A stretch of DNA of 64,000 nt from Mobula hypostoma (taxonomy: Eukaryota), in contig NC_086097.1 of assembly GCF_963921235.1 (NCBI RefSeq), positions 66,962,001-67,026,000 on the forward strand, read 5' to 3'. The notes under the pieces were generated by a model that was not told the origin of the DNA, ran no database searches, and saw only the letters and a list, made by a program, of their open reading frames with translations. Shown piece after piece: positions 1,549 through 34,477 of the stretch. Each line of letters begins with the position of its first letter. The first letter of the stretch is position 1. A program made the translations under genes and the position numbers.

Positions 1549-1736
1549 ATCTCTAGGAAGAGGTACAGTCGATGTTTCAGGCTGGGACCCTTCGGCAGGA
1601 CTGTCCTGACGAAGGGTCCCGGCCTGAAACGTTGACTGTACCTCTTCCTAGAGATGCTGCCTGACCTGCTGTGTTCACCAGCAACTTTGATGTGTGTTGC
1701 TTGAATTTCCAGCATCTGCAGAATTCCTCGTGTTTG
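1549..1736. mobile_element. Penelope-derived short element with head-to-head inverted repeat and hammerhead motif
   Basis: Arms 1549-1601 and 1603-1655 are inverted repeats about T1602; 13-bp TSD TGGCTTTACAATG at 1536-1548 and 1737-1749. Confidence 0.85.
1603..1636 (+). ncRNA. minimal type-I hammerhead ribozyme motif
   Basis: GTC-CTGACGA-AGG(gtcccgg)CCT-GAAAC-GTT-GAC: stem I, conserved core, stem II, GUU triplet. Confidence 0.7.
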
Positions 1737-2284
1737 TGGCTTTACAATGGTCCATCTGAGCTGATGCGCACATTGCAACTTACACAGTCATATGGGGAAA
1801 TATCACCATCGCTGGAGTGGAATCAAAAAAACAATGACACTAACTTAAAGAAAATTACATTATGTTGCGGACAAAAGCTTGGTCAGGATGGTCTTAACGG
1901 CAAAAAAAAAGGGATTTGGAGCAAGTATAATCATTTTCTCCCAAAATTATAGAAACTGAAAATAAGGAGCCAATGTGTGAATATAGATGAGAACATGAAC
2001 ATAGTTCAGTTCCTTTTTTGATATTCTGGTGAGTTTAATATTTATACTGTAATGATTTTCTATCAAAATTAAGTTTCCTTCATCAAGCTAATGAATACTC
2101 TGTTTTGAAACTAAACTTGGCACCAGTCTACAGGGATAAATCGAAGAGCACATAACCAAAAGTTTGGTCAAAGAGATAGGTTTACAGTACATTTTAATGC
2201 AGGAAGGAAACCTCATGAGGTTTACATAGACATTTATTTTTGTACTTAGAAATTTATAAACCGTCATCAGTATTCTTATGGAGA

Positions 2285-3010
2285 CAGAAGAGAAAGCAGA
2301 TGCTGGAATCTGGAGCAAAACAAAACAAATTGGTGGAAACACAGCGTTAGGCAGCATTTGCAGAGGAAAATGGACAGTGAGTATTTCGATTCAAGGTCTT
2401 CACAGGGATAAAAGATAGCGGAGGGGAGATAGCCAATATCTGGAGGTGAAGGGAAGGGATAGAACAAGAACTGGCAAGCAATCAATGGATCCAGTTGAGG
2501 AGGGACGATAGGCTGATGGGAGGAGGGAAAAGTGGCAACAGTGAGAGAGACTGGGAGGTGAAGATGGAGGCAACAAAGCGCTGCAGATGATGAAAGATGA
2601 TAGGAAAGGAAAGTGGAGCATTGAACCAAATAAGAGAAATGGAATGGGTAGATGGGAACAGTAAGGGGAGGGGACCCAGTGGGATGCATGTGTGGGGAAT
2701 GGGCAGTTGGAGTAGGTGGAAGAGCATAAAGAAACAGGGTGATGGGGGCCGGATGGGAGGGGAGCAGTGATTGTAAGAGGAACTGGAAGAAAAATGATAG
2801 AGGGGGAGCTGGTTGTCTGAAATTGGGGAATTCAATATTTATTCCATTGAGTTGTGGAGTAGCCAAGTGGAATGAGAGGTACTGTTACTCAGAGGTTTCC
2901 AACCTGGGGTCTACGGATCCCTTGGTTAATGATAGGAGTCCGTGGCAGGTTGGGAACCCCTGCTCTAGATTTTTATTTAGCCTCACTCTGCCCTTGATTC
3001 CCTTGTAGTT
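2285..3010 (-). mobile_element. old Penelope-like 3' fragment
   Basis: GCAGATGCTGGAATCTGGAGCAA...GGCAGCAT terminal motif followed by a purine-rich tract; degenerate. Confidence 0.6.
2890..2962. mobile_element. tiny hAT MITE
   Basis: CAGAGGTTTCCAACC ... GGTTGGGAACCCCTG TIRs; same family as 35004-35082; TSD not preserved. Confidence 0.7.
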
Positions 3011-3077
3011 CACTATCTGTTAATCTTTGATGTAAATCTATTCAATGCCTGTGCCTCCCTGGGTTAGGAAAATCTAA

Positions 3078-3696
3078 GATCAGAATCAGGTTTATTATCA
3101 ACGGCATGTGACATGAAATTTGTTAACTTAGCAGCAGCAGTTCAATGCAATACATAATCTAGCAGAGAGAAAAAAATAATAAATAAAATAAAACATAATA
3201 AATGAACAAGTAAATTAATTACATATATTGAATAGATTATTTTTTAAAATAATCAGAAATACTGTATATTAAAAAAAGTGAGGTAGTGTCCAAAACTTCA
3301 AAGTCCATTTCAGAATCAGATGGCAGAGGGGAAGAAGCCGTTCCTGAATCGCTGAGTGTGTGCCTTCAGGCTTCTGTACCTCCTACCTGATGGTAACAGT
3401 GAGAAAAGGGCATGCCCTGAGTGCTGGAGGTCTTTAATAATGGATGCTACCTTTCTGAGACACCGCTTCCTAAAGATGTCCTGGATACTTTGTAGGCTAG
3501 TACCCAAATTGGAGCTGACTAGATTTACTACCTACTGCAGCTTTATTCGGTCCTGTGTAGTAGCCCCTCCATACCAGACAGTGATGCAGCCTGTCAGAAT
3601 GCTGTCCACAGTGCAACTGTAGAAGTTTTTGAGCGTATTTGTTGACATGCCAAATCGCTTCAAACTTCTAATAAAGTATAGCCGCTGTCTTGCCTT
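3078..3696 (-). mobile_element. LINE 3' fragment (Rex/Babar-L2 group)
   Basis: IIKDLQHSGHALFSLLPSGRRYRSLKAHTQRFRNGFFPSAI C-terminal motif; (ATTCTG)n-type tail. Confidence 0.8.
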
Positions 3697-3969
3697 ACGC
3701 AACCCTCTGCAATAAAAGCGCTTATTTGTTTTATCTTAAAGGGGTAATTCCTTACTCTGAACTCTGTCTGCTATAAACTCATACAAGCGGCAACATCCTC
3801 CTGGCATATTTCTCCTTCCACATCCTAATAAAATCATCTCTTGCCCTTCCAAACTTCATTGCATTGACACCCAACCTATTTAACATTTCCTTATAAGTCA
3901 ATCCTTTTACCCCAGTATTTAGTCTACTTAGCCTTCCCTGTGCTATGTTCAAGTACTCCCCTTAAATAT

Positions 3970-4249
3970 ATACAGGCATCCGTTAGTCTCATGAAACCAT
4001 GGATTTGAGCCTGGGCAAGGTTGTATGGAAGACCGGCAGTTGCCCATCCTGCAAGTCTCCTCTCTCCACACCACCGATGTTATCCAAGGGAAGGGCTCTA
4101 GGGCCAAAACAACTTGGCACCAGTGTCGTCACAGAGCAATGTGTGGTTAAGTGCCTTGCTCAAGGACACAACATGCTGCCTCAGTTGAGGCTCAAACTAG
4201 CAGCCTTCCGATCACCAGACCAATGTCAACCACTTGGCCACGTGCCAAC
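3970..4249 (-). mobile_element. tRNA-derived SINE
   Basis: 15-bp TSD ACTCCCCTTAAATAT at 3955-3969 and 4250-4264; A box TGGCCAAGTGG and a B-box-like motif on the minus strand; same family as 38674-38985. Confidence 0.88.
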
Positions 4250-4538
4250 ACTCCCCTTAAATATGGAAAGCAAAACTGCATGCCATACCCTACACTTCTG
4301 TGAAGCCTTCCTACCTTTATTACCAAATAGATCCCTTTATACTGTTGTGTTTTGTAATCCCGCTGCATTTAAATCAGGGGTTCTTAACCTGAGGTCCGTG
4401 AACTTGGATGGGAAAAAAGTACGTCTTTATTTTCACTAACCTCTAACTGAAATTTAGTATTTCCTTCAATTATGAATGTAGGCAACAAACTGCAGTAGCA
4501 GTACCTGTGACTTTGTCACCAATAGAAATCACAGATAT

Positions 4539-4639
4539 CATAGTCCTGACGAAGGGTCTCGGCCTGAAACGTCGACTGCGCCTCTTCCTATAGATGCTGC
4601 TTGGCCTGCTGCGTTCACCAGCAACTTTGATGTATGTTG
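4539..4639 (+). mobile_element. Penelope-derived short element inserted in a hAT transposon end
   Basis: Same family as 1603-1736; 9-bp TSD CACAGATAT at 4530-4538 and 4640-4648. Confidence 0.85.
4542..4577 (+). ncRNA. minimal type-I hammerhead ribozyme motif
   Basis: AGTC-CTGACGA-AGG(gtctcgg)CCT-GAAAC-GTC-GACT; canonical GUC triplet ending at 4573. Confidence 0.75.
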
Positions 4640-7600
4640 CACAGATATTTATGGTAGTTATTAGACCTGCCGCTAGATCAAACATGATCACAGGTTTCCT
4701 GTCTGCAAACACTCGTGCAACATAGCTAGCCAACTATCGGGCAGCCCTGGAGCTAGTAGATGTTCACAAAACAGTGACATCACGTGTTCTCAGATTTGTG
4801 TCTAAGGCATCTAGGTTGCTCTGCATTACAGTATTCCCTATCTACAGTTGATGTTGATCAATGCATAGATGGAGGTGAGTCATTGTTGTTTGTTAAAATT
4901 TTGCAAAACTGGACAGTTCAAATAAGAATTCCTATGTCTCCATAAGACCGCATGGCCCTTTGTAATACAGATAGGGGTGCAGGCTATGGTGTAGACCAAG
5001 CAAGTTCAAGTGCATCTGAAGGTTGGGATAACTGCTGAAGTGTGCCAGTTAGAGTAACATCTTATTATTGCTAATAGATTGCAAAGTCATGCACAGTGTT
5101 GTAAGTTCTGTGAGTAGCAGAGCTTCTTTCTCTCTTTTTGTTTTTCTCTTTGTACTTCCTTTTTGTACACTGTCTGTCTCTGGAAGTAAAGATGTGCACA
5201 CGCAGTAGGTTTTACAAGCGTTGTTTGTGTATTATTATTCCGTTAAAAAACCATCTTAAAAACAACTTTGTGAGAAAACTGCAAATGATATCAGAAATGA
5301 GAACCATGATTTCCAGGAAGGCACAGAAAGCCACACAACTCCATGGGCAATATTAGCCAAATTTCAGGAAGGACATGGCGCCTGAAGCCATTAAAAATGT
5401 TAAAACTTCGGGTAAATTGTAAAACCTGCCTTATTTTACTAACTTGACATACAAATTTGTTGAATATCTTACACTTTACTTAATTAACATACAGATTACT
5501 TATTTCTTTGTAGACTTATCACACAAATTACTTAACTATACAAAAATATTGAGTTTCAAAAAAGTCAACTGAATTAAATATTTTATTTTAACTTTATTTT
5601 ATTCTTTTTGCAGGCCCAATTTAAGTTGAAATGTCGAAGGAAATTGACTATGTATTTTATGGTTTCACTTTCATTGATGGATGTGATGGGACACAAAATC
5701 AACAGTGTTTTTTGTGTAGAAAAATTCTTAGTAATGAAAGTATGACGTTAGTAAAGCTGAAACAGCACCTCACGTTTGTCCATCCTGAAAATACATCTAA
5801 AGATGCGGATTTTTTTGTGCAAAGAAAGCTTAATTTGAAAAAATTGGGACACTTCCAAAACTTGGGTTTGCCATTTCACAAAAACCTTTTCTTGAAGCAT
5901 CCTATAAAGTTGCCTACCAGATTGCCAAACAAAAGAAGCACCACACTATTGGAGAAACTTTAGTAAAGCCGTGTGCATGGGATATGGCCGAGATGGTTTG
6001 TGGACAGAAACAGAGAAAAAAAACTGGAAGCAGTTCCCTAATCAAATAATGTGACACGTTCTAGATACATTCAAGATATTGCTTTTAACGGTTTGAAGCA
6101 GGTTATTGAGGAAGTGGCAAATTCCATCCAGTATGATACTGCTTAAAACTACAGACATCTCTCAATGTAGTCAGCTTCTTGTTTTTGTTCATTATGTGCA
6201 TGCTGATGCCATCAAAGAAGAATTCTTATTTTGTGAGACCCTCTTAGAAACTACAAAGATCACTGACATTTTTGAAATGGTAAAAAGTTTTTTTACCAAG
6301 TAAAATTTTGACTGGAAGGAAAAAATTCATATTCTTTGCACAGATGGAACTCCTGCAATGCTTGCTAATACATCTGGTTTTGCTACTTTAGTGAAAAAGG
6401 AAGCTCCTCATGTCATCATTACTCATTGTATTTTTACTCAGACATGCACTGGCAACAAAGACTCTTCCAACAACCCTGAAAGAAGTTTTCTCAACAGCCA
6501 TAAAAGTCATCAGCTTTATTAGAAGTAGATCTCAATCAGAATAATCACATTTTTAAGACTTTGTCAAGAAATGGGTGTAGAATATGAAGTTTCTTTACCA
6601 CACAGAAGTTCACTGGCTTTCAAGAGGACAAGTCTTGAAGCACCTGTTTGAACCAAGGACAGAAGTTTCACTCTTTCTGAAAGAAAAAGAAACTCACTCT
6701 TCAAACAGTTTTGAAAAAAAGGATTGTATCCATGGATTGGCTTTCCTGGCAGATCTGAAGTCTCCATTATGGATGCTATTGAAAAATTTAAAACTTTTTT
6801 GGGTAAGCTGCCTCTATGGAAGAAGAGAGTAGACGCTGACATCTTTGCAAATTTTCAAATGCTGCAGCAGGTGGTTTACCAAGATAGAGTTGAGATACAA
6901 AATTCTCTGTCAATTTCTTTGAAGAGAGACATCTGCGAACACTTGGAATCACCTCAAGACTCTGTCAAAAGTTATTTCCATCTTGATGGCATTAAAATTG
7001 AACCAATTGATCCACAGTCCTTTTCTTCCTGATATAAACTGTATCAAATATGTTGATCTAGCCAAAGATGAAAACTTTAGGATGAAAACTTACTACAATA
7101 TTAGTTTAACTCAAAGAACCTTGAAGAATTCTGGTGTTCCTTGAGAGAAGCCTATCCTCACCTAGTTAAATAAGCTATGGAAATTTTAATTCCATTTGCA
7201 AGAACATATCTTTGCAAATCATGATTTTAAACACTTGTGACTATTAAAACAAAAAAAATCGAAATCAATTGAATCTCCATCATGTCAGTGTAGCTTTGTC
7301 AAAGTTTGCCCCGCAGTTTAATGTTCTTATTCAAGCTAAGCAACAACAACCTTCACACTGATATGTCTTTAAAAAGTAAATATATTTTTTAACTTGCCTA
7401 TACTTTAAATATATATAAAGGTTTAGTCTTGTTATTTAATGTGTTCATAAAGAAGCACATATATAATTATATCACAAATTTGTTTTTTTTATTTTGATAA
7501 CAATTTCTATATAATTGGTTTCTTTTGTAATCCTATGTATTTTATGTTATGTATTTAAATACATTATGCTGAGAAGTGGTCTGTAGGCTTCACCGGACTG

Positions 7601-7922
7601 CCAGTTTTAACATGGATTGTAAATAGTGGAGTCTTCGCCATCTGCAAGTTGTTTTTTGATACTGATAGCATTCCATTTCCAATCTGAAAATGTCCTTTTA
7701 TTAATGCTCTGTTTTTTCTGTTAGTCAGTCAATTCCCTATCAATGCCAATATATTATCTCTAAGTATGTGCATTCAAGAAGTGTAGAAACCATTTATGTG
7801 ACAACATACTGAATATCTCTGAATACGCTACATCTACTGATGCATAAAAGAGTGGAGCAAATCCAGCCCAGATAATTACCACACAATCAGCAAAGTGAAG
7901 GAAGTTTTTATTAACAGTGCTT

Positions 7923-9243
7923 CACTCAGTAGCTACTTTATTAGGTACACCTGTACACCAATGTTTCCTCTAACTTGTAATGAACGGTGTGTGCAAAAAT
8001 CTTGTGCTGTGCAATTTTTTCCCAGTGACAAAACATGTGTGCATTGAATTTTATATACAGGGATATTAATTTTAACAGCTAACAAAACACTGTCAATAAG
8101 AATTTTGATCTCTTCTGTGCTTGATCATTTTCACCCACGTTCATCTGCACCCTCATAAAACATACGTAGCAGCCCTGTAGAGGGTAATAAAGGATTTTCT
8201 GGCCAGAGCTTTTGCACACCATCCATATGTGATATGTTTGTTAAATGATGCTTTAAAAAGTCAAGTTTCCAAATATCACTATATCACTCCACTTCTTCCC
8301 ACTTGCAAATTCACCAGTAATTTTTGCATCGTGACAGTACATGCAGGTAACACCAGTTTCTGTATTGTACATAAATATTTCTTGTAGCTGTATATCTTGG
8401 ACTCATGGGCTTTTGGTGTAGCAGTTTCTACTGTTTCATTAAGCCATTCCACTTTAAATGAACTAGCAGTACTTTGGCGATACACGCTCTTTGCTTCTCT
8501 CGAATTCAACATAGTGAATCAATAATTTCTTGAATAAAATCAGTATAAATAAGCCAGTTCTAAAATCTGCAGACAAATCATCACAAACTCCACGTTGTCA
8601 ACACCGTCTGCATCAGAAACCGGAAAAAGAAACTTACTTAACATGCCAACGAAGTAGAGGATGACAACCTTCTGTGTGCAGTTTAAATTCCTTTGTGCAT
8701 TAGTAGCAAAAGATGTGAGCACACACACATGCGCACACCTTAGAAGGAACATTACTGTACATGTGCTTGTTAATGCAAATATCCATTCAGCCAAATGTGG
8801 CAGCAACTCAATGCATAAAAATATGCAGACATGGTCAAGAGGTTCAGTTGTTCAAACTAAACATCAGAATGAGGATGAAATGTAATCTAGATGGCTTTGA
8901 TTGTTGGTTTGAATATCTTAGAAACTGCTGATCTCCTGGAATTTTCATACACAACAGTTTACAGAGTTTACAGAGAATGGTGAGAAAAACAAAAAAAAAA
9001 ATCCAGTGAGGGGCAGTTCTGTGGGTAAAAACACTTTGTTAATGAGAGAGGTCAGAGGAGAATGGCCAGAATAGTTCAAGCTGAGAAGAAGGTGACAGTA
9101 AATCAGGAAACCACAAACAGTGGTGTGTAGAAGAGCATCTCTGACCGCACAACAAGTAAAACCTTGAAATGGATGGGGTACAATAGCAGAAGACCATGAA
9201 CATACACTCAGTGGCCACTTTATTAGGTACAGGAGGTACCTAA
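7923..9243 (+). mobile_element. Tc1-like non-autonomous remnant, interrupted by a hAT element
   Basis: CACTCAGT(A/G)GC(T/C)ACTTTATTAGGTACA terminus present twice (~7923 and ~9205); Tc1 HTH-like remnant RGQRRMARIVQAEKKVT around 9050-9100. Confidence 0.65.
7959..8754 (-). mobile_element. internally deleted hAT element
   Basis: TIRs CAATGTTTCCTCTAA / TTAGAAGGAACATTA; TSD CTGTACAC/CTGTACAT; N-terminal transposase-like remnant SFKVEWLNE on the minus strand. Confidence 0.8.
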
Positions 9244-9249
9244 CCACTG

Positions 9250-9435: not shown

Positions 9436-9439
9436 GAAA

Positions 9440-9950: not shown

Positions 9951-10254
9951 ATTGTTAAAAATTTCCACAGTACGCTCCCCAGCTATTTAATACTTGTAAT
10001 ATTCCCTGCCTTGTATCCTCCTCACCCCATCCTCTTAACATTTTATCACCTCCGCATATCCCAGTAATCTCACCTGCCTTCCTCAGTCTTTGCTTGACTT
10101 TTCCCCAATCAGCTGCCATGCACCACCCCTCTTTTCAGTGTCTTCAAGCTTGCCTATCCCCACTAGTGGTTCTCCTCTCCCGCTCACTACACGATTTTCT
10201 GCCATTTAGAAGATCTTCAATTAAAATTTATGGTTAGCATAGGTAGGCCGCAGA

Positions 10255-11735
10255 GCCTTTTGGGCATGTGTGCTTTTTAAACTTCTTCAATGTGCCTCCA
10301 ACTTCCACCCTGCCCTTGAATTCACTTGGTCTATTTCTGATACCTCGCTCACCTTTCTTGATCTCTCTGTCTCCATCTCTGGAGACAAACTGTCTACTGA
10401 TTCCCAGAGCAATCTTGACTATACTTCCTACCCTATCTCCTGTAAAAATGCTATTCCCTTTTCTCAGTCTTTTTGTCTCCGTTGCATCTGTAAGGGGTTT
10501 CTTTTTTTTATGTCACTGTGTAGTCTAATTAAAATGGCTTCTTTGTTATGTTAACTGCTGAGAAAATCCTCCCGCTAGCAGTTTGTTTGGATCATGTTAC
10601 TGATAAGAAGGTGTTACAAACCAATTGGGATAGTTGTTATGCTTTCTGTGTGTCTGTAAGATATTGTGATGTGTGGGTTTTTGGGGAGAAGGCGAGAGAG
10701 AGAGAGAGAGGATGAACCAGGTGCTGTGAGTCCGCTAACGGGGTCAAACCCCGAGCAGGAGTCCGAGGTCCAGAGTGTTCGGCGAGGAGAGGAGACGGAG
10801 AGGGACTCGTGTGGAGCGTCTGATCAACCACCGTTGTTGGTCCCAGGCGGCAGGTCGAGGTGGTCCGAGGGGATCGCAGGGTGAAGAAGGAGGGTCCTGA
10901 GCTCCAACTGTTTATGCACAAAGAGATTGAACTTTGATAAGTGTGGCACCTTTTATTTTCCTTTTATATTTTTATTCCCTATTAATTATATAGTTCCAGT
11001 AATATCCATAAACTGTAAATCATTTAATCGTATCTGGTGTATTGTCTATTATTTGGGCAGGGTGGGGTACATTACACAGCATCCACACAAACTAATTACC
11101 CAGTTTGGCGGGGCCGAGGGCTGTTTCCCTAGACAACAGTGAGCTGAGCGACCCTGAGGCCAGTCGGGGGGGCTACACATCTGTTCCCAGAATGAGGCTT
11201 TCCTTTCCAGGACATCAGAGATGTCCTTCTTCGAAGAACAGGGTTTCCGTTCCTCCATCATTAATGCTGCCTTCACTCGCATCTCTATTTCTTGGACATC
11301 CGTGCTCACCCATCTTCTTGCCACCTTAGCAGGGATAGAGTAGCCCTTGTCTTCACCTACCACTCCATGGAGCATCCGCATCTAACACGTCGTACTCCAC
11401 AATTTCCACAATCTTCAAAAAGGTCCTACCAACAAATACATCTTTACCTCTCTCCCCCAACTCTCCACTTTCCGCAGAGATTGCATCTTCCATGATTCCC
11501 GTGTCCGTTCATCCCTCCCCACTAATCTTCCTCCTGCAAGTAACAGACATATGATGCCTTCACCTATCCCCTGCTAACCTGCCCTCCTTCCCCTCCACCT
11601 ACCTTTTTTAGTCTGGTATCCCCCCTTTCTTTTCTAGTCCTGATGAAGGGTTTCACCTCGAAACACTGACTGTTTATTCATCTCCATAGATGCTGCCTGA
11701 CCAGCTGAGTTCCTCCGGCACTTTGTGTTTGTTAA
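10255..11735 (+). mobile_element. decayed Penelope-like retroelement (RT C-terminal remnant plus terminal repeat), interrupted by a solo LTR
   Basis: ASNFHPALEFTWSISDTSLTFLDLSVSISGDKLSTD is a typical PLE RT motif. The coding sequence resumes after 11181 and ends in a degenerate CTGATGA...GAAAC hammerhead-type repeat (11636-11671) of the same family as the short elements. Confidence 0.85.
10489..11177. mobile_element. solo LTR (Gypsy-like)
   Basis: Begins TGTA, ends TACA; 4-bp TSD CATC at 10485-10488 and 11178-11181; excision restores the Penelope reading ...RCICSQ. Confidence 0.85.
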
Positions 11736-14069: not shown

Positions 14070-15370
14070 GAGGGCTAATGCTGCACTGTTATTACAAAGG
14101 GAGGAAGGGAATAAACTGACTCATTTCAAGCCAACATGTTTAATTTCAGTGGCTCACAAACAATAGGAAATTCATTACTTACTTAGAAAGACATAGATTA
14201 AGGACAGCCAGCATGGATTTACAGAAACATCATGTCTGATAAATTGAATTGCATGAGATGATGATAGCAAAACTTTTGAAGTCTTCTATATAAATTGCAG
14301 CAAGATCTTTAACGAGATCCAGTGAAGTGGACTGGTCAAAAACAGGTACTGTAAGACGGGCAAAACTGACTGTGAAGGAAAGCAGAAAGGAATAATTAAC
14401 ATTAACTTTTATGACTGAAAGGCCATGACCATAAAATTCTATAAGATTCCATTTTTAGCAGCTTGCTTTTTATTGTAAAGATTAATAGAGTTAATTTTAA
14501 GATGTATGATAGAGAAGTGTGTTGACAGGGAGAAGGAATGCTTTCAATTTTGGGAGTCAGCTAAGCAAAAAAGTAGTAAGTGTGATTTAACCCGGAGAAG
14601 AGCAAGATAATATTTGGGGAAGTGTAACAAAGAAAAGGCATAGACAATAAGTAAGAGGGTATTCAGTGGTGTGAAAGGACTGAGAAGTATTAAAGTGTAT
14701 GTTCACAGATTGTTAAGGAAACCATGACAGACAGAGACACAAGAACCTTTAACATATGCAGTAATTTTTGCTCCAGATTCCAATATCTGTAGTCACCTTC
14801 ATAAATGCTGCTTGACCTGCTGAGCTCCTTCAGCAGAGTGTTTTTAGAACAGGCAGAGAAGGAGGCTAAAAGGCTAAAAAGGATCCCTCCCTTTATTAAC
14901 TGAGACAGCACAAAGATTATTTTAGAATTATGTACACTTGTTAGATCACAAGTGTGTTTGAACTGGAGAACACGCATAGAAAATTTATAAGAATGGTGCT
15001 AGGGCTAGAAAATTATAGCCACATACAAAGAATGAACAGGCTATTTTTTGTTTAGTTGGAACAGAAAAGACTAAGAAGACTTAATTAAGCTGTATAAGAT
15101 CATGAAGCATATAGAAAAAGTAAAATACAAATAACTTATTTTGTTTAGCTGAGAGTCCAAACTTTGAAGCATTGATTTCAAGAATTGGCAGGACTGTACT
15201 GAAGTTGAGAGAAATTGTTTTCACCATTAAAGTTTTAGAAGAATCCCTAAATGCCTAAAAAGTACCTAATGTGTTCTTCAACAGCTGTAAACTGCTGGGT
15301 TACAGATCAAATTCTGGAAGCCAGGGTTAAATTAGGTATCTCTCTTTCAACCAGTACAGATAAAACGAAC
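14070..15370 (+). mobile_element. ancient, heavily decayed CR1 LINE
   Basis: Residual SQHGF...CL motif (14205-14240) and RMVLGLENYS-like 3' region; no open frame. Confidence 0.55.
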
Positions 15371-15415
15371 TAGTGGACTGTCCCCAATACATTTTTGGCA
15401 GATCCCTTTCACTAC

Positions 15416-19725: not shown

Positions 19726-19729
19726 AGTC

Positions 19730-20465: not shown

Positions 20466-20751
20466 GTTGGTAGTGTTCTGATTTGATCTGTATTTCATTT
20501 AAATACATAAATTGTTACTCAGTTAAACAATAATTTGTATTTTATGAGATAATTGTCAATACTGTACCTTCACTTAGTTCACTCCCAGCCATTTCTGGCA
20601 TTTCCAACCCTGAATGCTTAAAACCTCTGAGTAAAAAGTTCCCAATTGTTTTAATGCTTACTTCTTGGCAACTATCAGTGACATAAGTTGCTGCTTTTGA
20701 ACACAAAGACGCACAACTGATGCCTTTTAAAAACAGTACGGTATAGTATCT

Positions 20752-20904
20752 CACATCAAAGTTGCTGGTGAACGCAGCAGGCCAGGCAGCATCTCTAGGA
20801 AGAGGTGCAGTCGACGTTTCAGGCCGAGACCCTTCGTCAGGACTAACTGAAGGAAGAGTGAGTAAGGGATTTGAAAGTTGGAGGGGGAGGGGGAGATCCA
20901 AAAT
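20752..20904 (-). mobile_element. Penelope-derived short element
   Basis: Reverse complement of the 4541-4639 family plus a purine-rich extension; near-identical to 31697-31844; no TSD found. Confidence 0.8.
20809..20844 (-). ncRNA. minimal type-I hammerhead ribozyme motif
   Basis: Minus strand reads AGTC-CTGACGA-AGG(gtctcgg)CCT-GAAAC-GTC-GACT. Confidence 0.75.
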
Positions 20905-21757
20905 CATTTTTTCCTGCTAACACAGTGCGTTCTGTTTGTTAAGCTTCGTAGGCAAGTGTTTTGGCTTTGGCTGCTCAGCCTAGGAATGTTGTGCCAACCA
21001 GTGGGGTTTGTCTGGTATCATGCTGTAACATTCTGTCCAGTGGGATGCCATGGAACATTTCGAGAGAGCTGGGTGGGATCAGACTTCTGAAGGACAATAG
21101 TCTGTTTTGTTTTTGATTGACAGGGGTTTGGAAGATGAAGGTGATGCAGAGTGGAGCACCAGGGAAGATGCTTGCAGAATCCCACTTTAAGGAGAGAGCC
21201 CACTGTAAGAAGTGCTTTGTGCAGACAAATGGTTCCAAGGAGAAAGTGCCAATGCTTCTGAGCTAGCCAGTCCATCTGAAATGACCTTTGAGGGTTCAAA
21301 CAGTGGCTGGTGTCTTTCATGCAGGATGTGGGTTCAGCACTTGAATAATCAAAGTGCAGCATCCTGACTACTTCAGAAACGAGCTCCAACGTTTATGTGC
21401 ACATTTAGACTGGTTTAACTGTACTGGACTCCCCCTCACCCCCATTAACTGTTTGTTAAAGTCAGAATACCTGTAAATATACTTCCACTTTAATTTTACG
21501 CTGGTGTGAGGTCTGTTATTTCCTGTCGAGTGATAACTTTGTATGGGGCAGCATTCACCACAATTTTCATTCCCTCATTGGACTATCCCAACTTTCCTGT
21601 TAGGTTGAACCCAAATCATACTGACCCAAGACGCGTGTTGCTTATTGACAGTGACTTTATTACCGTTACCCGTGCACTGCTGAGTCACATGGCTGTTAGC
21701 CATAGTTACTGTAGCTAATGAACCAAGCTTGCTACGAGCCACAGTGAGAGGGTTACA
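20905..21757. mobile_element. probable 5'-truncated LTR
   Basis: Compositionally distinct non-coding block ending GAGGGTTACA, like the 10489-11177 LTR end; no TG start or TSD found. Confidence 0.45.
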
Positions 21758-22860: not shown

Positions 22861-22899
22861 TGCCCTACTGTAACTTTTATACTTAGAGCAAAAATATTT

Positions 22900-24060: not shown

Positions 24061-24676
24061 GCATTTTCTCTCCCCTCCCCCCCAACACACACCACCATCA
24101 CCCACAACTTCTTGTCTGGGATGGTGGCAAGGCTGGACAGATAATTTCCTGTTAAATGCTGTCCTTTCAGTACATGGAATTCACCACTTCCATTTCATAA
24201 TGTGTAATTTCTTATGCTTCCCAAAAGCCACACACACTCAACTGATTTGCCTTCCGCAAAATTACATAGAAACCACATCAGTAGAAGAGGTCATTTAACC
24301 CAATCAGTCCATAATTATAGTTATTTTCCTTGTATATTCTTGAGCCATTGAACAAATTGTAGAAAAGCACTCCAATGTTCTCAATATAAACTTCTCATTC
24401 CAGTACTATGCCTCACACTTACAGCTCTTTGTAATTCTGTTTTCTGACAATTTAACTCTTGCCAGTTAAGTGTACATAAAACAATCCCTAATAGTTAAGA
24501 AGGCCCCTTGGGAATAATCTTGAAAAAATTATTGAGGTCTGTGTGCATTGCTGTTACAAGTCAATTTTAGAGTCATACTCCAGGGTAACGTGACTGAGAA
24601 CTCACTAACAACCCACAGTCCAAATATGTACCAGTTGGTAAGCTAATTGGTTATTATAAATTGTCCTGTGATTATT

Positions 24677-26098
24677 AACACACAAAAAATGCTGGAGGAA
24701 GTCAGCAGGCCAGGCAGCATCTATGGAAAAGAGTACAGTTGTGTCATAAGGGGGACGTTAGTGGCAGACTCAAATGCAAGACACAGACACTGAAGTACTA
24801 GGAACAGGACTAGGTTTGTCAAGAAAGCAAGGGAAGAAACAATGCTGGACATCGACGCAGGCCCTGGACAAGACTAGGATTCAGGGTCTGGGCTAGGACT
24901 TGGACTAGAGACATGGGACCTGGATGGGAAACTAGGGACAAGGAGCCTGGACTAGGAACTCAGAACTCTGGAACCAGAGTCTGGACAAGGACCCGGAACC
25001 TGGGTCTAGGTTGGGACTCGGGACTAGGATCTTGGCAAGGACAAGACGTGGCTACAGGACAGGACAAGGCACCCCAGCACAGGATGAGGAATCTCCAGCA
25101 GGGGCTGAGCACCAGAACTGGATTGGGACACGAAGCCCAGATTTGGACAGGGCTGGAAAACAATGCCTGGACTTGGTCTTGGAACACAGGAACACAGAGC
25201 CTTGGATGTGGACTGGACGAGGTACTCCAGGGCAGGACGAGGCTCTTGGACTAAGTTTGGACTCGGCTGGGTTAGACTCTCAGATACGGAGCCGGGTCTC
25301 GTCCTTGGAACACAGGGCCGGGATGCTATCGCAGGGCCGGGACCCTTTCTTGGACGCAGAGCCGGGATGACTGCCAAGAACACTTGCTGAGGGAACTGCC
25401 GAGGTAAACTGCCAAGGGACTCCTGGACTGGACGAGGTACATGGACAGGATGAGAACATGAAGCCTTGACTTGGGACAGGATTGGAACACGGCGCCTGGA
25501 ACTTGGAACACAGGGACACAGAACACAGAGCCGGGACCTCTCCTTGGGAACAGGACTTAGGGCCGAGACTCTAGAGTCAGGACCCCTCCTTGAGAACAGG
25601 ACCTAGGGCTGGGGCTCTTCTTTGACACGTACACTAAACAGAGGGACACAAAGAGGCAGTTCCAAACTCAATGATAGGTAGTTCCTTATCTTGGTGCGGC
25701 AAGGCTCCAGTCTCACTCCAGCGGTTGAACTAGATGGCGATACAGGTGAGGATGCAGGCAAGGTAGCAGGCTAAAGTAACAGACCAAGATTACAGATGAA
25801 GGTTAGTGCCAAAGTAACTGTTGAGATAAACAGCCAAAGTAACTGCCAGGGATTCAGATGGAGAGGGGAAGGGAACAGTCCTGCCCAAAACGAGAATCAG
25901 GTGCCTCAATTAAGGCACCCAATGGAACAAGGGCAAACAGGAAAACCCGGAATAAGGAATCAATGGACTGGACCGTGAACCGGAATGCAGACGTCATGGA
26001 CTGGACCACGACAAGTTGACGTTTTCTGCTGAGACCTTTCAGGATTTTTTTTGGGGTGTTTTGCTTGGATTTCCAGCATCTGCAGATTTTCTCTTGCT
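24677..26098 (-). mobile_element. Penelope-derived short element split by the LTR (pieces 24677-24741 and 26014-26098), itself inside a V-SINE-like element
   Basis: TGCTGGAGGAAGTCAGCAGGCCAGGCAGCATCTATGG...CAGTTG | AGTTGACGTTT...GAGACC; SINE sequence on both outer flanks (~24590-24675, ~26105-26170). Confidence 0.75.
24742..26013. mobile_element. 1272-bp solo LTR-like element with internal degenerate tandem repeats
   Basis: TGTC...GACA termini; 5-bp TSD AGTTG at 24737-24741 and 26014-26018; recurring GGACTAGG / GGAACACAGG / GGACTGGACGAGGTAC units; splits a Penelope-derived element. Confidence 0.85.
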
Positions 26099-26175
26099 TG
26101 TGATTGTCCCAATTAGGCTAGGTAAGTTAAATTGGGGGAGTGCTGGGTGGCACAGCTTGAAGGGCTGATTGTTTG

Positions 26176-26226
26176 ATGGATGTATCTATGTACGTATGTA
26201 TGTTGGTTGGTAGGTAGGTATGTAGA
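26176..26226. repeat. compound (TATG)/(TTGG)/(TAGG) microsatellite
   Basis: Visible degenerate tetranucleotide run. Confidence 0.7.
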
Positions 26227-26404
26227 TCCATTTATTCTTCCAACCTTTTCTTCAACACCCAATGGGGTGGTAGAGGCAAGTACTCTCACAACATCTAAAT
26301 GAGCACTTGAAATGGCAGTGCATGAAGGCCACTGACTAAATGTCCGTAAATGGGATTAGGTATATGAATGCTTGGTGTTTGGCATGGACACGGAGGGCTG
26401 AGGT

Positions 26405-27170
26405 CCTTGGTTCTTGGTTCTTGATCCTCCAAAATATTCCACATGGAATTTAAACTGGATGTGGTGGAGGGTGGGCTTAAGGAGGAGATTTTTGAAGAAG
26501 AAAAGCTGCCTTAAATTTAATTGGGTTTGGTTGTGTGACTGTAGTAAGAAGATTATTCCACACTTTAATTGTGCGGGGGGGGGGGGGAATGAATTGCTGT
26601 ATACATCTGACCTGGTAGTCAGTATTTCAAATTGAGTTGAGTGCCCTCGTCTGCTCCTAATAGGTTGGGGTTTGATGTGAGATTGGTAGTCTATGCCGAG
26701 TTGACCATTTAACATTTTGTAAAAACAGGTCAGGTGGTGTGCTTCAGATCTATCTTGGAGAGAGTTCCACTTTAATGAATTTAAAAGTTGAGTAACTCTC
26801 TCATAGGTATTTGTGACAAATCGGGCTGCCTGTCTTTGGACTCGCTCGATGGAAGTAGTGTTTTTGTTTGCGTATGGGTCCCATGCAGCAACTGCATTTT
26901 CCAAATGAGGCCTAACAATGGTGAGGTACAACTTCTCCTTAACTGAAACTGAACAATGATGAAAATTGCGTCTCAAAAATTTAGGACTCCTGTTGAATGA
27001 TGGGTCTGACTATTCCAGCATAGATCATTCTGGATTTTGATATCAAGATACTAGATATGTTTGGTTTCTTCAAGGGCAACACCTAGGATTTTATATGATG
27101 TTTTTTTACCTGGTTTTCTCTGCCTGTGACACGCATGGTTTCACATTTGGAAGGACTGAACGTCCGGTTC
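26405..27170 (-). mobile_element. LINE 3' fragment (CR1 group, Crack/Daphne-like)
   Basis: KEKLYLTIVRPHLENAVAAWDPY...IERVQRQAARFV; (AAGAACC)n tail. Confidence 0.8.
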
Positions 27171-27328
27171 CTTTGAATACTTCAAGATCTGCCAGGTTTT
27201 GCCACTCACCTACAGAGCCGGGATAATTTACAGTGGCAAATTAACCCATCGACCCGCACGTCTTTGAGGTATGTAAGGAAGTTGGGAACCCTGTGGTCAA
27301 AGCTACATTAGTTGCAGAGTGAATGAGA

Positions 27329-27481
27329 CTTTTTTCCCCCCAAAAATGTACTTTATTCAGAAATATTACAAAATAAAGTTATTTACAAAAAAAAAACATT
27401 CGTTGACTCTGAGTCCTTATTCAATAAATAAAGTTATTTACAATAAATCATGCGTTGACTCTCAGTCCTTATTCAAAATAA
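27329..27481 (-). mobile_element. short A-tailed retro-insertion with ~50-bp tandem units
   Basis: 11-bp TSD AGTGAATGAGA at 27318-27328 and 27482-27492; repeated AATAAAGTTATTTACAA...CGTTGACTCT(G/C)AGTCCTTATTCAA. Confidence 0.75.
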
Positions 27482-28319
27482 AGTGAATGAGAATAACAAC
27501 AGAAGATAGTATTGAACGCGGGTCTCTCGAACTGTCAAGCAAGCAGCTTTACTGGCATTGTGTAAATATAATGAAACGTCACAAAACGATATACTGATCT
27601 GATTACCTATTTTAATCACGTTGGTTTAGTGAACTCTTCTCAACTTTGAATAACACAAAGAGATATTTGATATTCACTCCAATTTAACCTTTCATCTGAA
27701 GACAGCACCTCTGCCAACGAAGGTAAATATGGCCAGGTCCAGTACTGGAATGTTATCTTCTGACTCGGACAACCGCACAACGGCTTGAGCTTCTGCAAAC
27801 AAAGTCTGTTTTCTATTGAGTAGGTTAGACAATAATTTAGAATGGTAGGCAGCAACTGGTCTTCTACCCCACTTGTTTTCCAAATCGCAACACAGTCGTG
27901 GTCAGGAAACCACCTCTGCGAAATCATCAACTCATTCTCCCCATTCCGGCGGCAGGTTGAATGGAAAAAAACAGTTCGAGCAAGGCTCGCGCTGTAATTG
28001 GATCCGTCACAGCTGAAGAAGGCTCCAAGCGGCAGCAATTCAAAGTGCGCACAATGTGAAAAGACCACGTTGGAAGGAAGGAACGAAGTGAGCAGCGAAC
28101 ACTTGGCCGAGCGCACAGCCCCCGGCGACCAGTGCAGATCCCAGTCACACGCGACGTCACAGCGCGAGACAGCGAGCTGTACTCGTTCCTCTTCACCGGC
28201 GCGGCGCGGCCAATGGGAGGAGAAGTATTTGTGTGTGGGTTCTGCCCCCTTTGTGACGTACGTGCGCAGGCGGCGTTACGGGAGGGGAGGGGGTTGGGTC
28301 GGGTTGGGTAGGGAAGCGA

Positions 28320-28400
28320 ACGTCGGAGTGAGTGAAGGAGGCGGCAGAGGCTGCGGCTCGGCGGGCGGGGAAGGAAAGGAAGCGCTTGGCAACTGAGCAG
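28320..28400 (+). other. BAZ1A: probable non-coding first exon (5' UTR) of BAZ1A; start approximate
   Basis: CAG|GTACGG donor at 28400/28401 downstream of the promoter motifs. A polypyrimidine tract plus AG (28831, or 28847) precedes the ATG-containing exon. TSS cannot be fixed from sequence. Confidence 0.5.
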
Positions 28401-28852
28401 GTACGGCGAGCGCTGACCAGGCAGCCGGTGGTGGTCACTGAGTCGGTCACCACCAACTCCTGTAAGTCGGACGGCGGTGAAACGTCCGGCACCGGCCAGG
28501 TGTTCGTTGGGAGACACTTGGCGCGACTTGTTCCGCGTTTGGTGCGGCCGTGCCGACACCGCGGAACCGCGACTGCCAAGCACATTGTCGGCCTCGCTTG
28601 ACTCCGGATTCGGCCGTGCTGCCGGCGACAGGGAGCCGCGGCGCCCCAGTGGTGGATCGAACGGCGCCGGCGGCGATTAAGTTTGGTGGTGAAGTTTCCT
28701 GGCCGGTTAGACGTTGCCGGCCGGGTGCGGGCTCCCCGCTCTCGGGCTGCGGCTCCGGGCGCCGATTTTATTTTGTGTTTCCCCCCCTCTCTATATTATT
28801 CTCTCTTTGTTCTTCCCTCCTTCTCTGACAGCTCTGCCTGTCTAAAGAGGAG

Positions 28853-28965
28853 ATGCCGCTCCTCCACCGTAAGCCGTTCGTCAGACGAAAGCCGCCGTCC
28901 GACCTGAAGCCGGACGAAGAAGTTTTCTACTGTCGGGTGACCAGGGAAATCTTCAGGAGTTACGA
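28853..28965 (+). CDS. BAZ1A: BAZ1A coding exon 1 (start of WAC domain)
   Basis: ATG 28853; MPLLHRKPFVRRKPPSDLKPDEEVFYCRVTREIFRSY, recognisable BAZ1A N-terminus; 113 nt; donor GA|GTGAGT. Confidence 0.97.
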
Positions 28966-30339
28966 GTGAGTTGCGATTTCACCTCGTCAACCGGTCGCTA
29001 AACTTTCTTCCGCGCCGATGCTCTGGCTGATAACCGCGGGTCGGATGGCTGGGGATACTAGCGCTGCCTTTCTAGCCCCTTACGCGGCCGTACTTATTAT
29101 TATTGTTTAAATCAACAAATAATGGTTCGAAATGTACGTTAACGGCACGGGGTTTAGTGAGCAACCCCTCCCACGGCCGCCGTGTCCTAGGCTCGACAAA
29201 ACCCGGGTGTTTCTTAAGTGGTAATAAACTCGTGTCGGTTGTGAGTAGGCCTTGTACTGTCGGATCATGTAAATTTATTCATATACCATGATGTCTGCTT
29301 TTTTTTCCCCTCTCTATATGCGCGCATTCACTGAGTTCTGAACGAATTTGCGCCAAGCCAAACGTGGCTTGGTCCTCAATTCTCTGGTTTACATGTGCCA
29401 GGTCAGAGCTTCATTTTGGATAATCCTCTAACGCGGAGGGACAACTTGAGTTTCTGGGCGACATGTGGAGAGCGTGGGTTGTTTTGGTGGTTATCCGAAT
29501 TGCCTCTTTTGTACAAGGAGTCAGTAATGGGCCTAGTTTAGAGAGCCAGAGACTGCTCATCTCTATGCAGCAATACTGAAAGTTATTTTCATAGTGTCAT
29601 TTTAAAATGTCGAAGACCTAGTTCGTGAATTTTTTTTAAAGACAATATAACAACCACGATTTGTTTGCCTTAAAAATGATTCACTTATTACCGCTAAGAT
29701 AGACGATAGAAGAGGAAAGGCTAATTGAAATGGTCACAAAATGGTATATTAAAAGACTTGATCTAAAATATCCTCTTGGAGTGACTAGATTTTTTTAAAA
29801 AGCCTAGGAGTTCCCTAATTGGAATCTTGTCTTTTCTAAGTTTTGCAAGTTGTTTTTTATATTTAGTGGGCAGCACCACTGACAATTCTGTATTCATCGC
29901 ATTGAAGGCTTAATTGTTGTATGGATGCTGATAAACTTTGAGATTACTGCCCATTTATGTCGAAATTTGCTTTATTTAAGTAGTTAAGAAGGTTCTTTTT
30001 AGAAAATGTGTTTCAGTTTGACCTGTTGACATTTGTAGATGGGAATCAAATGATCACTTTTCAAGGAATGAACTTGATAGAGTATGTGAAGATTAACACC
30101 TGCAAAATTTAAAAACAAGTAATATGGATTATTTGTTGATACCAGTTTCTTGCCATCATGTAAGCAGATTGTTGCCCCCCAGTTAATGATGAATTTAATG
30201 GTCAACCACACTTTAAATTATAAATATTTAATGAATATTGTACCGTATCCACCCTGGTGTGCAATTGCACTGTTCCACAATCTGTGCCGGGTGATTGTCC
30301 ATCCAAAGACTAGGAAATCTCATCCATTAACTTGTAAGA

Positions 30340-31660
30340 AATGGAAGTAGGAGCTGCTTATTTGACTCTGCCTTTTCCATTCTCTAAGCTTAAGACTGTT
30401 CTGTACCTCCACACAGTTTTCCTACCGACCCCTTAATCCTTTGATTCACTTGTATCTTCAAAACATAATGATCTTTTGAACGTACTTTGCACTGAATCGT
30501 GGGCCTCCTAAAATTTGTTCCCTTTATGAATGGCTATTGCTTATTTTGAGTGTTACCATGATTCTAAACTTGCTCTATCAAGAGAAACATCAACATCAAA
30601 GACATCAAATCAACATTAACCTTCTGAAATCCGAAAAGAATCCCTCTTGTTTTATTAAACTCAGAATATACTGTACTGCAGTCAGTTAAATCTCTGTGCA
30701 ACAAACCTACAATCTCTTAAATCAATATGGTGAATTTCAGTTGCACTCATTCAATCACAAGTAAACAGATGAGGATGTCAGACCTTCATTTTTGGATAGA
30801 GTTGTATGAAAAACTTGCATTAAAAAGAGATGAGACATCTGTTCTTGTACTGAAAGTCTTTTGCAATATTAACAAACATACCATTTGTCTTACTAATTAC
30901 TTGCTCTGTCTACATGTTAAATTTCAGTGATTCCTGTAGAGATGCCAGGTCTATTTAAAGGTAATACCTTTTACTCTCGCACTTTCATAAGATCTTTTTT
31001 CTCTATTAGAATGGGTGACATTCAACTTTTCCACATTTTACTTGTCATTTACTTGCTCTTCAACTGCCTATATCCCTTCAACACATTTTAACATTGTGCT
31101 AATAGTCCATTCTTCCAGCTGGCTTTATATCTTCTGTGTTATGAGTAGTAGTCCAGATTAGATCCCAATAGTACCCCACTGATCATAGCCTTCCAATCTA
31201 GAAATGATTCAGTTATTCCTTCAAGAATGACTAATTAAGACAGGGTTGGCAAGATGGCCCTATTTGAACATTAAATAATTTGTCATTAAAGCACCCAAGA
31301 TTAGGGGATGTGGGGAGGCCAGATTTTTCCATTAACCTAGCCTCAGTCCATGCCAGTATATTACCCCCAAAATTGTGCTCTAGTTTTGTTTAATAATCTA
31401 ATGTTCATCACCTTATTCATTTTTTTCCTGGTGGTCGAAATGCCATTTCAACTGGTTCACTCTGAACAATTCTGTTAATTGCAATCTCAAAACAAATCAA
31501 CATGTGTATAGTTCCATCAATGCCTGTCTCACCTTAACACTTCTATAGTTGCCTGTTTTCTTTTCCTTCTATAACTCTAGAGGATGTATTTGCTTCCTTC
31601 ATCTTGGTGAGAACCATTCTTGAATTTGTGTAATTTTGGTAGGTGATAATTAGTGGATCC
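30340..31660 (-). mobile_element. ancient decayed CR1 LINE
   Basis: Weak residual similarity to CR1 RT and 3' end on the minus strand; no ORF. Confidence 0.45.
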
Positions 31661-31692
31661 ACTTTAAGCACTAGGATACTAGTTATCAAGTC

Positions 31693-31909
31693 CTCACACA
31701 TCAAAGTTGCTGGTGAACGCAGCAGTCCAGGCAGCATCTCTAGAAAGAGGTACAGTCAACGTTTCAGGCCGAGACCCTTCGTCAGGACTAACTGAAGGAA
31801 GAGTTAGTAAGAGATTTGAGAGGGGGAGGGGGAGATCCAAAATGATAGGAGAAGACAGGAGGGGGAGGGATGGAGCCAAGAGCTGGACAGGTGATTGGCA
31901 AAGGGGATA
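31693..31909 (-). mobile_element. Penelope-derived short element in a BAZ1A intron (antisense)
   Basis: Family match; 10-bp TSD TTATCAAGTC at 31683-31692 and 31910-31919. Confidence 0.85.
31754..31789 (-). ncRNA. minimal type-I hammerhead ribozyme motif
   Basis: Minus strand reads AGTC-CTGACGA-AGG(gtctcgg)CCT-GAAAC-GTT-GACT. Confidence 0.7.
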
Positions 31910-34445: not shown

Positions 34446-34477
34446 CCTACTTAACACCGCTTTTTTTTTCTTTGCAG

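What the first reader, a model, noticed from the sequence alone, without database searches (positions are those of the whole stretch)
1549..31909. Dispersed family of short Penelope-derived retro-insertions carrying minimal hammerhead ribozymes
Seen: four copies keep a complete hammerhead core with the same layout, stem I (A)GTC/GAC(T), CUGACGA, stem II AGG/CCU, GAAAC and GUC or GUU: 1603-1636 (+), 4542-4577 (+), 20809-20844 (-) and 31754-31789 (-). Three have their own TSDs (13, 9, 10 bp), indicating independent insertions of only ~100-220 bp. A degenerate copy of the same repeat ends an RT-bearing Penelope remnant at 11636-11735. Established: Penelope-like elements are known to carry minimal type-I hammerheads with a near-absent, self-complementary stem III, thought to act as dimers. 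Inference: this is a young, high-copy, non-autonomous ribozyme-bearing (retrozyme-like) family in this lineage. I cannot tell whether it has been described for this taxon.
Basis: partly seen in the sequence, partly recalled or inferred. Interest (0 to 1): 0.8.

Follow-up and report, generated by a model that had tools for sequence, protein, structure and literature searches.

The report
Truncated Penelope ends carrying minimal hammerheads
These short repeats are real insertions that carry a small hammerhead-ribozyme motif, and they are most likely cut-short ends of a very abundant Penelope-like jumping gene of a ray, a kind of element already described, rather than a new independent ribozyme element.

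Summary
Four complete minimal type-I hammerhead motifs lie at the stated coordinates (4 in the window, 1 in 300 shuffles). The three target-site duplications (13, 9, 10 bp) are exact, and a related organism has the empty site of the 31.7-kb copy. One correction: helix II most likely starts one base later (G-U or G-C pair, unpaired A). The 'retrozyme-like non-autonomous family' reading is not supported. The copies have variable 5' ends, two 3' ends about 40 nt apart (the Penelope 'tail'), inverted arms and no tandem arrays, and they keep the cleavage site uncut. Upstream, the family runs into sequence matching the ends of ray RT + GIY-YIG proteins. They are most likely 5'-truncated 3' ends of a high-copy, probably Neptune-type Penelope-like element; single dispersed motifs of this kind were described in 2014. 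I found no paper on this ray family. The scan has noted it many times in this genome and in sharks. One part remains unexplained: 4 of 9 copies start at the 5' edge of helix I, not at the cut site, and rare junctions suggest head-to-tail ribozyme duplications.

The parts
1549..1736 (+). Copy 1, 188 bp: inverted arm (1549-1602) joined head-to-head to a forward copy (1603-1736) that has the hammerhead (1603-1636) and the ~40-nt tail (~1697-1736)
   Evidence: 13-bp TSD 1536-1548/1737-1749; arms share a loop-II variant that copies 2, 3, 4 and 6 lack; folds as one long hairpin, -122 kcal/mol
2271..2944 (-). Older Penelope-like remnant: end of the GIY-YIG region, pyrimidine-rich 3' UTR, decayed hammerhead, tail
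   Evidence: tblastn P0002 residues 331-385 to 2944-2780, E 8e-5; blastn to copy 1, E 4.5e-5
4539..4639 (+). Copy 2, 101 bp, starts 1-2 nt before helix I; intact hammerhead 4542-4577 with GUC; short 3' end
   Evidence: 9-bp TSD 4530-4538/4640-4648
10243..11735 (+). Penelope-like remnant of a sister subfamily: post-YIDD RT and thumb (10243-10491, 11179-11541), GIY-YIG missing, decayed hammerhead 11636-11671, short 3' end
   Evidence: 60-68% identity to best hits, among them Mobula and Hypanus proteins; tblastn
10489..11177 (.). LTR-like insertion (TG...CA) interrupting the remnant, 4-bp duplication CATC
   Evidence: sequence read directly
14765..14845 (+). Old fragment: tail-like piece followed by a 3' piece that starts downstream of the hammerhead
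   Evidence: nhmmer E 2.6e-5 for 14788-14837
20749..20907 (-). Copy 3, about 160 bp, about 63 nt of 3' UTR, intact hammerhead 20809-20844 with GUC, short 3' end, no TSD found
   Evidence: 91% identical to copy 4 over 159 bp
24674..26098 (-). One sister-subfamily copy: inverted tail piece (26045-26098), forward copy starting at +3 of helix I (26044), decayed hammerhead, split by a 1272-bp LTR-like insertion (24742-26013) with a 5-bp duplication that spans the predicted cut site
   Evidence: 7-bp TSD 24667-24673/26099-26105 and 5-bp duplication 24737-24741/26014-26018
31693..31909 (-). Copy 4, 217 bp, 120 nt of 3' UTR, hammerhead 31754-31789 with GUU, short 3' end
   Evidence: 10-bp TSD; empty site in organism D, present in organism B
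43396..43522 (+). Copy 6, young family, starts in or just before helix I, decayed core, carries the tail
   Evidence: 87% identical to copy 1 over 127 bp

Best explanation
The short repeats are real insertions carrying a minimal hammerhead motif, and they are most likely 5'-truncated 3' ends (pseudo-LTR with optional tail) of a very abundant, endonuclease-bearing, probably Neptune-type Penelope-like retrotransposon of a ray. Inferred cycle: a full-length element makes RNA and an RT + GIY-YIG protein; the protein nicks AT-rich DNA; reverse transcription starts inside the RNA at one of two sites about 40 nt apart, giving the short end or the tailed end; it usually stops early, often at the 5' edge of the hammerhead; second-strand steps leave 7-13 bp duplications and sometimes an inverted arm. 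The template was uncleaved RNA, because the intact copies span the cut site. The motif is kept in source elements and would cut only as a dimer, likely with protein help. Single inserted copies are predicted to be inert and show CpG decay at catalytic and free positions alike.
For: Shown here: variable 5' ends, two 3' ends, head-to-head inverted arms, TSDs; empty orthologous site; two remnants in the window place the same repeat 3' of RT-thumb or GIY-YIG coding sequence; loose ends behind 31910 agree at 0.82 and 0.76 in two runs and, read by eye, encode the last six residues and a stop matching P0003 and P0002; 7 of 16 homologs longer than 280 aa have a C-x4-C-x2-C linker, the Neptune/Nematis mark in PMC8557442. 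Likeness between subfamilies appears confined to the hammerhead: loose ends pile up just outside both helix-I strands (31789 behind 632, 31752 before 529, of 4417 partly laid contigs in X1). CpG decay reaches catalytic positions (G8 2.9-7.6%, G12 4.7-9.3% of depth in the three non-RNA runs). Published: 5' truncation, inverted arm and 30-40 bp tail are typical of these elements (PMC8557442, PMC3846280); internal RT initiation at two sites and uncleaved RNA as substrate (PMC11167929); mostly single dispersed minimal hammerheads from truncated elements (PMC4209133).
Against: No full-length element of the young subfamily was seen; the link to the ORF rests on a 30-nt loose-end consensus translated by eye. 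GIY-YIG and RT matches of the homologs are below Pfam's cut-offs. No tree was built, so the clade is inferred from the linker. 4 of 9 copies start within about ten bases of helix I, which plain random truncation does not predict (toy model P 2e-5 to 2.4e-4, or 4e-4 to 5e-3 over 20 windows). The mechanism is carried over from an anole Poseidon element, a different clade. Cleavage was not tested.
Confidence: 0.8

Rival explanations
1. A SINE-like non-autonomous subfamily: one or more short master copies that begin at helix I are transcribed and mobilised in trans by the Penelope protein.
For: 4 of 9 copies start within about -2 to +7 of helix I; 248 contigs in X1 leave the reference at 31788 with long, low-agreement ends (median 205, agreement 0.33); pLTR sequence alone can be mobilised in trans in rotifers (PMC3846280, passages).
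Against: The four starts differ by several bases and belong to two subfamilies; copies 2 and 3 differ at only 4 of 92 positions yet differ by about 60 nt at the 5' end; contig depth upstream of the hammerhead stays within the range seen downstream (summed depth is a poor measure); ARAGORN finds no tRNA gene in the window.
Confidence: 0.13
2. A retrozyme: tandem units self-cleave, circularise and are reinserted, so that copies are bounded by the cleavage site.
For: Animal non-LTR retrozymes are related to Penelope pLTRs and were found in the one chondrichthyan sampled (10.64898/2026.07.22.740005, parts 1-3); rare contig joints from 31788-31789 back to 31751-31753 may be tandem hammerheads (table 5c).
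Against: None of the 5 tandem repeats in the window overlaps a hammerhead-bearing part; the intact copies span the cut site uncut; no loose-end row at 31757 among the 24 shown (936 hidden); retrozymes are described as tandem repeats with canonical hammerheads, and minimal ones are assigned to Penelope elements (PMC7229834, passages).
Confidence: 0.04
3. Individual copies are kept by the host as working ribozymes that process transcripts.
For: Four copies have an intact core; catalytic CpG changes are rarer in a run guessed to be RNA (G8 1.8% vs 6.2%).
Against: The loop CpG change is rarer there too (3.2% vs 8.9%), so this looks like younger copies, and the RNA label is a guess; monomer folds bury the core, and the active dimer (-9.5 kcal/mol) is far above two monomers (-20.0) or an inactive duplex (-28.3); copy 1 is locked in a 54-bp hairpin; copy 4 is absent in a close relative.
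Confidence: 0.03

Closest known systems
Minimal hammerheads (min-HHR) in pLTRs of metazoan Penelope-like elements (Cervera and de la Pena 2014, PMC4209133)
   Same: CUGANGA-H, helix II opened by G10.1, GAAA, palindromic two-base helix III, NUH, short helix I, U-rich upstream; mostly single dispersed motifs and close pairs on opposite strands, attributed to truncated elements.
   Different: No cartilaginous fish in the part of the supplementary alignment I saw (0 hits for shark, Callorhinchus, Leucoraja, skate in 2 files; file 1 not searched). Helix II here is short (4 bp, two G-U pairs). Copy number looks far above the 4,000-9,000 motifs reported for coelacanth and Xenopus (rough estimate).
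EN+ Penelope-like elements, Neptune/Nematis-type linker (PMC8557442; PMC3846280)
   Same: RT followed by C-terminal GIY-YIG in homologs, cysteine linker, 5' truncation, inverted 5' arm, optional 30-40 bp tail, TSDs of 7-13 bp.
   Different: No microsatellite targeting seen at the four TSD-bearing sites; clustering of 5' ends at helix I is not described in the passages I read.
Poseidon element PAc of Anolis carolinensis (Frangieh et al. 2024, PMC11167929)
   Same: Two 3' ends defining a tail downstream of a hammerhead; AT-rich targets; insertions keep the uncleaved ribozyme.
   Different: In PAc the start codon lies at the hammerhead; the four young copies have CUGACGA and no AUG in the core. 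Homologs here carry a cysteine linker that marks other clades.
Animal non-LTR retrozymes (PMC7229834; 10.64898/2026.07.22.740005)
   Same: Short, non-coding, type-I hammerhead, related to Penelope pLTRs.
   Different: Retrozymes are tandem repeats, mostly with canonical hammerheads, processed into circles; these copies are single, minimal and not bounded by the cut site.

Membership tests
Metazoan PLE min-HHR | Conserved core CUGANGA...GAAA...NUH closed by helix I | tested here: met
   4 of 4 named copies
Metazoan PLE min-HHR | Unpaired base after A9 and helix II opened by G10.1-C11.1 | tested here: met
   G-U in the window's four copies, G-C in 21-76% of laid depth; G-U also occurs in published examples
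Metazoan PLE min-HHR | Helix III reduced to a palindrome | tested here: met
   ACGU in 4 of 4
Metazoan PLE min-HHR | Located in the terminal repeat of a Penelope-like element | tested here: met
   3' of RT-thumb and GIY-YIG remnants; upstream continuation matches ends of P0002/P0003 (read by eye)
Metazoan PLE min-HHR | Self-cleavage as a dimer | not testable with these tools
   Active dimer is topologically possible but not favoured by nearest-neighbour energies
EN+ Penelope-like element | Single ORF with telomerase-like RT and C-terminal GIY-YIG | tested here: inconclusive
   Only fragments in the window; homologs show YIDD, thumb and a GIY-YIG-like motif, Pfam scores below cut-off; no full-length copy seen
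EN+ Penelope-like element | 5' truncation, inverted pLTR, optional 30-40 bp tail, variable TSD | tested here: met
Neptune clade | Cysteine (CX2-5CxxC) linker between RT and EN | tested here: met
   7 of 16 homologs over 280 aa; lost from the window's remnant; also marks Nematis
Neptune clade | Placement in the RT phylogeny | not tested
   No named reference sequences were at hand
Non-LTR retrozyme | At least two tandem units each with a complete hammerhead | tested here: not met
   No array in the window; only rare possible tandem joints elsewhere
Non-LTR retrozyme | Units defined by the cleavage site and expressed as circular RNA | tested here: inconclusive
   Insertion boundaries in the window are not at the cut site; circles cannot be seen in contigs
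Rfam hammerhead families | Covariance-model match | tested here: not met
   5 matches at E up to 1, none a hammerhead; a motif without helix III is not expected to fit (my inference)

The most novel reading that the evidence does not exclude
The 5' edge of the hammerhead, not its cut site, is a preferred stop and template-jump point for Penelope reverse transcription. It produces huge numbers of 100-140 bp ribozyme-first mini-insertions, inverted arms that start at helix I, and occasional head-to-tail 38-nt hammerhead duplications that could cleave in cis and seed retrozyme satellites. The cause could be the RNA fold, an RNA 5' end, or the pyrimidine tract plus AG that sits at this edge, where an intron ends in Drosophila virilis Penelope.
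Probability: 0.3. Interest if true: 0.5.

Novelty: new member of a known kind. Interest (0 to 1): 0.22.

Why it matters
As filed it is ordinary: another Penelope-like family with the known minimal hammerhead, here in rays, where I found no published description. Its use is as a natural experiment. Very many dated insertions with exact 5' and 3' breakpoints allow a direct test of whether the hammerhead cuts during Penelope transposition, which is still open, and of why truncations gather at helix I. The copies are also presence/absence markers for ray phylogeny.

Tried and rejected
No whole genome was held, so no genome-wide count or breakpoint histogram could be made. A 30-nt degenerate pattern found 0 matches in viral and 0 in metagenome contigs. 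Rfam gave no hammerhead; the mir-789 match (50 bits, threshold 100) is the hairpin of copy 1. Folding z-scores of the four motifs were -0.15 to -0.61, so stability is no evidence. The idea that the new cDNA forms a terminating hairpin on completing helix I was tested with DNA parameters and not supported (-1 to -5 kcal/mol, helix I not formed). No RNA holder was listed among the runs; X17 is only guessed to be RNA and is contigs, so its higher depth 3' of the cut site is not used as evidence. Summed contig depth (4-13 million against 12-15 in the flanks, X1) is not a copy number. A protein search with the translated copy 4, meant to find a read-through link to the ORF, gave one hit, a Mobula birostris gene model containing the repeat, and no link. 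No host exon was recognised by Pfam among 119 of 180 minus-strand ORFs of 40 aa or more in 1-28.5 kb, so sense or antisense position of copies 1-3 is unknown. Reading the 24.7-kb piece as an insertion that starts at the cleavage site was rejected: it is half of a copy split by an LTR-like insertion. Lunse et al. 2017 was not held. A look-up of earlier scan notes by sequence returned nothing.
Full report
Observation. The four motifs lie at the stated coordinates. A descriptor for a minimal type-I hammerhead (3-bp helix I, CUGANGA, GAAA, self-complementary two bases, UH) finds these 4 in the window and 1 in 300 shuffled windows. The four copies differ at 4-9 of 92 positions. The TSDs are exact and abut the repeat: 13, 9 and 10 bp, giving insertions of 188, 101 and 217 bp; copy 3 has none. 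Laid contigs confirm one insertion independently: one contig of organism D covers 31520-31693 and 31921-32079 contiguously, so it lacks the 217 bp and one TSD copy, while organism B has contigs running from both flanks into the element (table 8). D differs from the window at 15 letters and one gap in about 333 flank bases, B at 5 of 401.

Corrections to the motif. Helix II is better read as G-U, G-C, G-C, U-G closing CUCG, with an unpaired A after A9: -6.0 against -4.6 kcal/mol. The base before GAAA is C in 26%, 30%, 76% and 21% of depth in the four runs, and C pairs only in this register, which is also the published consensus (PMC4209133). GUU is most likely decayed GUC. Rfam has no hammerhead match.

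More copies. Self-comparison and a profile search (10 hits at E below 1e-4, against 2 hits at E 5.9 and 7.5 in three shuffles) add a tailed young copy at 43396, an older remnant at 2271-2944, a fragment at 14765 and one copy at 24674-26098 that is split by an LTR-like insertion and has its own 7-bp TSD. I count nine elements; weaker fragments (637-713, E 0.015; 63679-63716, E 0.44) were left out. Two 3' ends occur, about 40 nt apart. Two elements have an inverted piece at the 5' end. The two arms of copy 1 share a loop variant that copies 2, 3, 4 and 6 lack, which suggests copying from one template.

Coding context. The remnant at 10243-11541 finds 42 proteins; 5 of the 7 best named hits are Hypanus sabinus and 2 Mobula hypostoma proteins at 63-68% identity, so the window is most likely from a myliobatiform ray. 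It aligns from just after YIDD through the thumb and lacks the endonuclease; the remnant at 2944-2780 matches the end of the GIY-YIG region. GIY-YIG matches in 5 of 13 homologs scanned are below Pfam's cut-off. A C-x4-C-x2-C linker is present in 7 of 16 homologs over 280 aa, the mark of Neptune and Nematis elements (PMC8557442); no tree was built. For the young subfamily, contigs that run past the 5' end of copy 4 agree at 0.82 (X1, 175 contigs) and 0.76 (X5, 101). Reverse-complemented by eye they read P-R-P-P-V-P-stop and P-G-P-P-V-P-stop, the last residues of P0003 and P0002. The short copies therefore appear to be the end of the 3' UTR of a coding element.

Conservation. Loose ends pile up just outside both strands of helix I (31789: 632; 31752: 529; of 4417 partly laid contigs in X1), with consensus letters resembling the sister subfamily at 11636, so the hammerhead looks like the part that subfamilies share. 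Within it the frequent changes fall at tolerated positions (N7 about 16%, H17, the 11.1 pair). Changes at catalytic positions are CpG transitions (G8 6.2%, G12 4.7% in X1), and the helix III CpG decays on both strands alike (10.9% and 11.8%), as expected for unselected copies. Twelve variant rows and 936 loose-end rows were hidden, X1 was not fully counted, and depths are sums over contigs. Five young copies in 64 kb would extrapolate to the order of 100,000 per genome; that is a rough inference, not a count.

How it most likely works. Published work gives each structural feature. 5' truncation, an inverted 5' copy and an optional 30-40 bp tail are typical of these elements (PMC8557442; PMC3846280). 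In an anole element, reverse transcription starts at two internal sites that define the tail, targets are AT-rich, the ribozyme cuts only with protein, and uncleaved RNA is the main substrate (PMC11167929). Minimal hammerheads occur mostly as single dispersed motifs, probably from truncated elements, with no activity as monomers and low activity as dimers (PMC4209133). Here the monomer folds into an inactive form that pairs the core with the cleavage triplet, and the active dimer is not favoured by nearest-neighbour energies, which omit tertiary and magnesium terms. Shown: the anatomy, the insertion, the decay. Inferred: the source element, the enzymatic steps, the inactivity of single copies.

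Against the retrozyme reading. Non-LTR retrozymes are defined as tandem repeats with a hammerhead in at least two consecutive units (10.64898/2026.07.22.740005) and mostly carry canonical motifs (PMC7229834). No copy here is tandem and none is bounded by the cut site.

What is not explained. Four of nine elements begin within about -2 to +7 of helix I (copy 1 at +2, copy 2 at -1 or -2, the split copy at +3, copy 6 ambiguous); the inverted arm of copy 1 starts there too. A toy truncation model gives P of 2e-5 to 2.4e-4, or 4e-4 to 5e-3 across 20 possible windows. At 31788, 248 contigs (X1), 249 (X5) and 160 (X10) leave the reference with long, low-agreement ends like unique flanks, though sister subfamilies confound this pile. 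Table 5c lists joints from 31788-31789 to 31751-31753 (summed depth about 290 in X1, flank depth 12-15); the letters between mostly match natural variants downstream of helix I, which fits head-to-tail duplication of about 38 nt, but the table does not state the kind of joint. A pyrimidine tract and AG sit at this edge in both subfamilies; in Drosophila virilis an intron ends at helix I (PMC4209133; PMC2377424). A cDNA hairpin does not explain the stop. I had noted the pile at 31788-31789 before seeing that an earlier scan note reports the same clustering; that note is unchecked and is not counted as support.

Literature seen. PMC4209133: parts 1-2 of 4, a term search of 2 supplementary files (file 1 not searched) and part 2 of 3 of file 2. 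10.64898/2026.07.22.740005: parts 1-3 of 5; its supplementary tables, which list the retrozyme families of one chondrichthyan, were not seen and may bear on novelty. PMC11167929: parts 1-2 of 4. PMC8557442: passages and sections 3 and 15. PMC7229834, PMC3846280, PMC6765202, PMC2377424 and 10.1101/2025.06.08.657570: passages. Lunse et al. 2017: title in a reference list only. Searches for a description in rays: Penelope with Mobula, 0 papers; Penelope, Chondrichthyes and hammerhead ribozyme, 3 papers, two seen as listings only; further listings showed none. Repbase and Dfam could not be searched, so the family may be catalogued there.

Verdict. A correct catch of a known kind: new member, interest 0.22. 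The clustering of 5' ends at helix I is the only part worth a follow-up.

Noticed in passing
window 34455-34760 (+) and 28000-30000: Exon-like ORF with a WAC_Acf1 domain (Pfam E 1.9e-25), probably BAZ1A (name recalled), downstream of a GC-rich stretch; copy 4 would lie antisense and copy 6 sense in its introns (inferred).
   Followed up: partly
window 24742-26013: LTR-like insertion (TG...CA, 5-bp duplication) placed across the predicted cleavage site of a decayed hammerhead; probably coincidence.
   Followed up: partly
window 10489-11177: LTR-like insertion of 689 bp with a 4-bp duplication inside the Penelope remnant.
   Followed up: no
window 31751-31789 (table 5c): Contig joints that may be head-to-tail hammerhead duplications of about 38 nt in organisms A and B; kind of joint not stated by the tool.
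   Followed up: partly
P0043 residues 149-183 (Mobula birostris gene model): A predicted host protein contains the repeat in frame, starting next to the pyrimidine tract and AG; either exonisation or an annotation artefact.
   Followed up: partly
window 31766: The G-U form of the helix II closing pair dominates in organisms A and B (about 70-74%) and the G-C form in organism D (76%), which suggests a lineage-specific subfamily burst.
   Followed up: no
window 60082-60139: Short near-perfect palindrome of about 58 bp, MITE-like.
   Followed up: no
window 40682-41468, 47165-50871: LINE fragments with RT, AP-endonuclease and an SGNH/GDSL esterase ORF1, likely CR1/L2-type (label recalled).
   Followed up: no
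window 637-713 (+): Weak, old fragment of the same terminal repeat with a tail-like end (nhmmer E 0.015).
   Followed up: no
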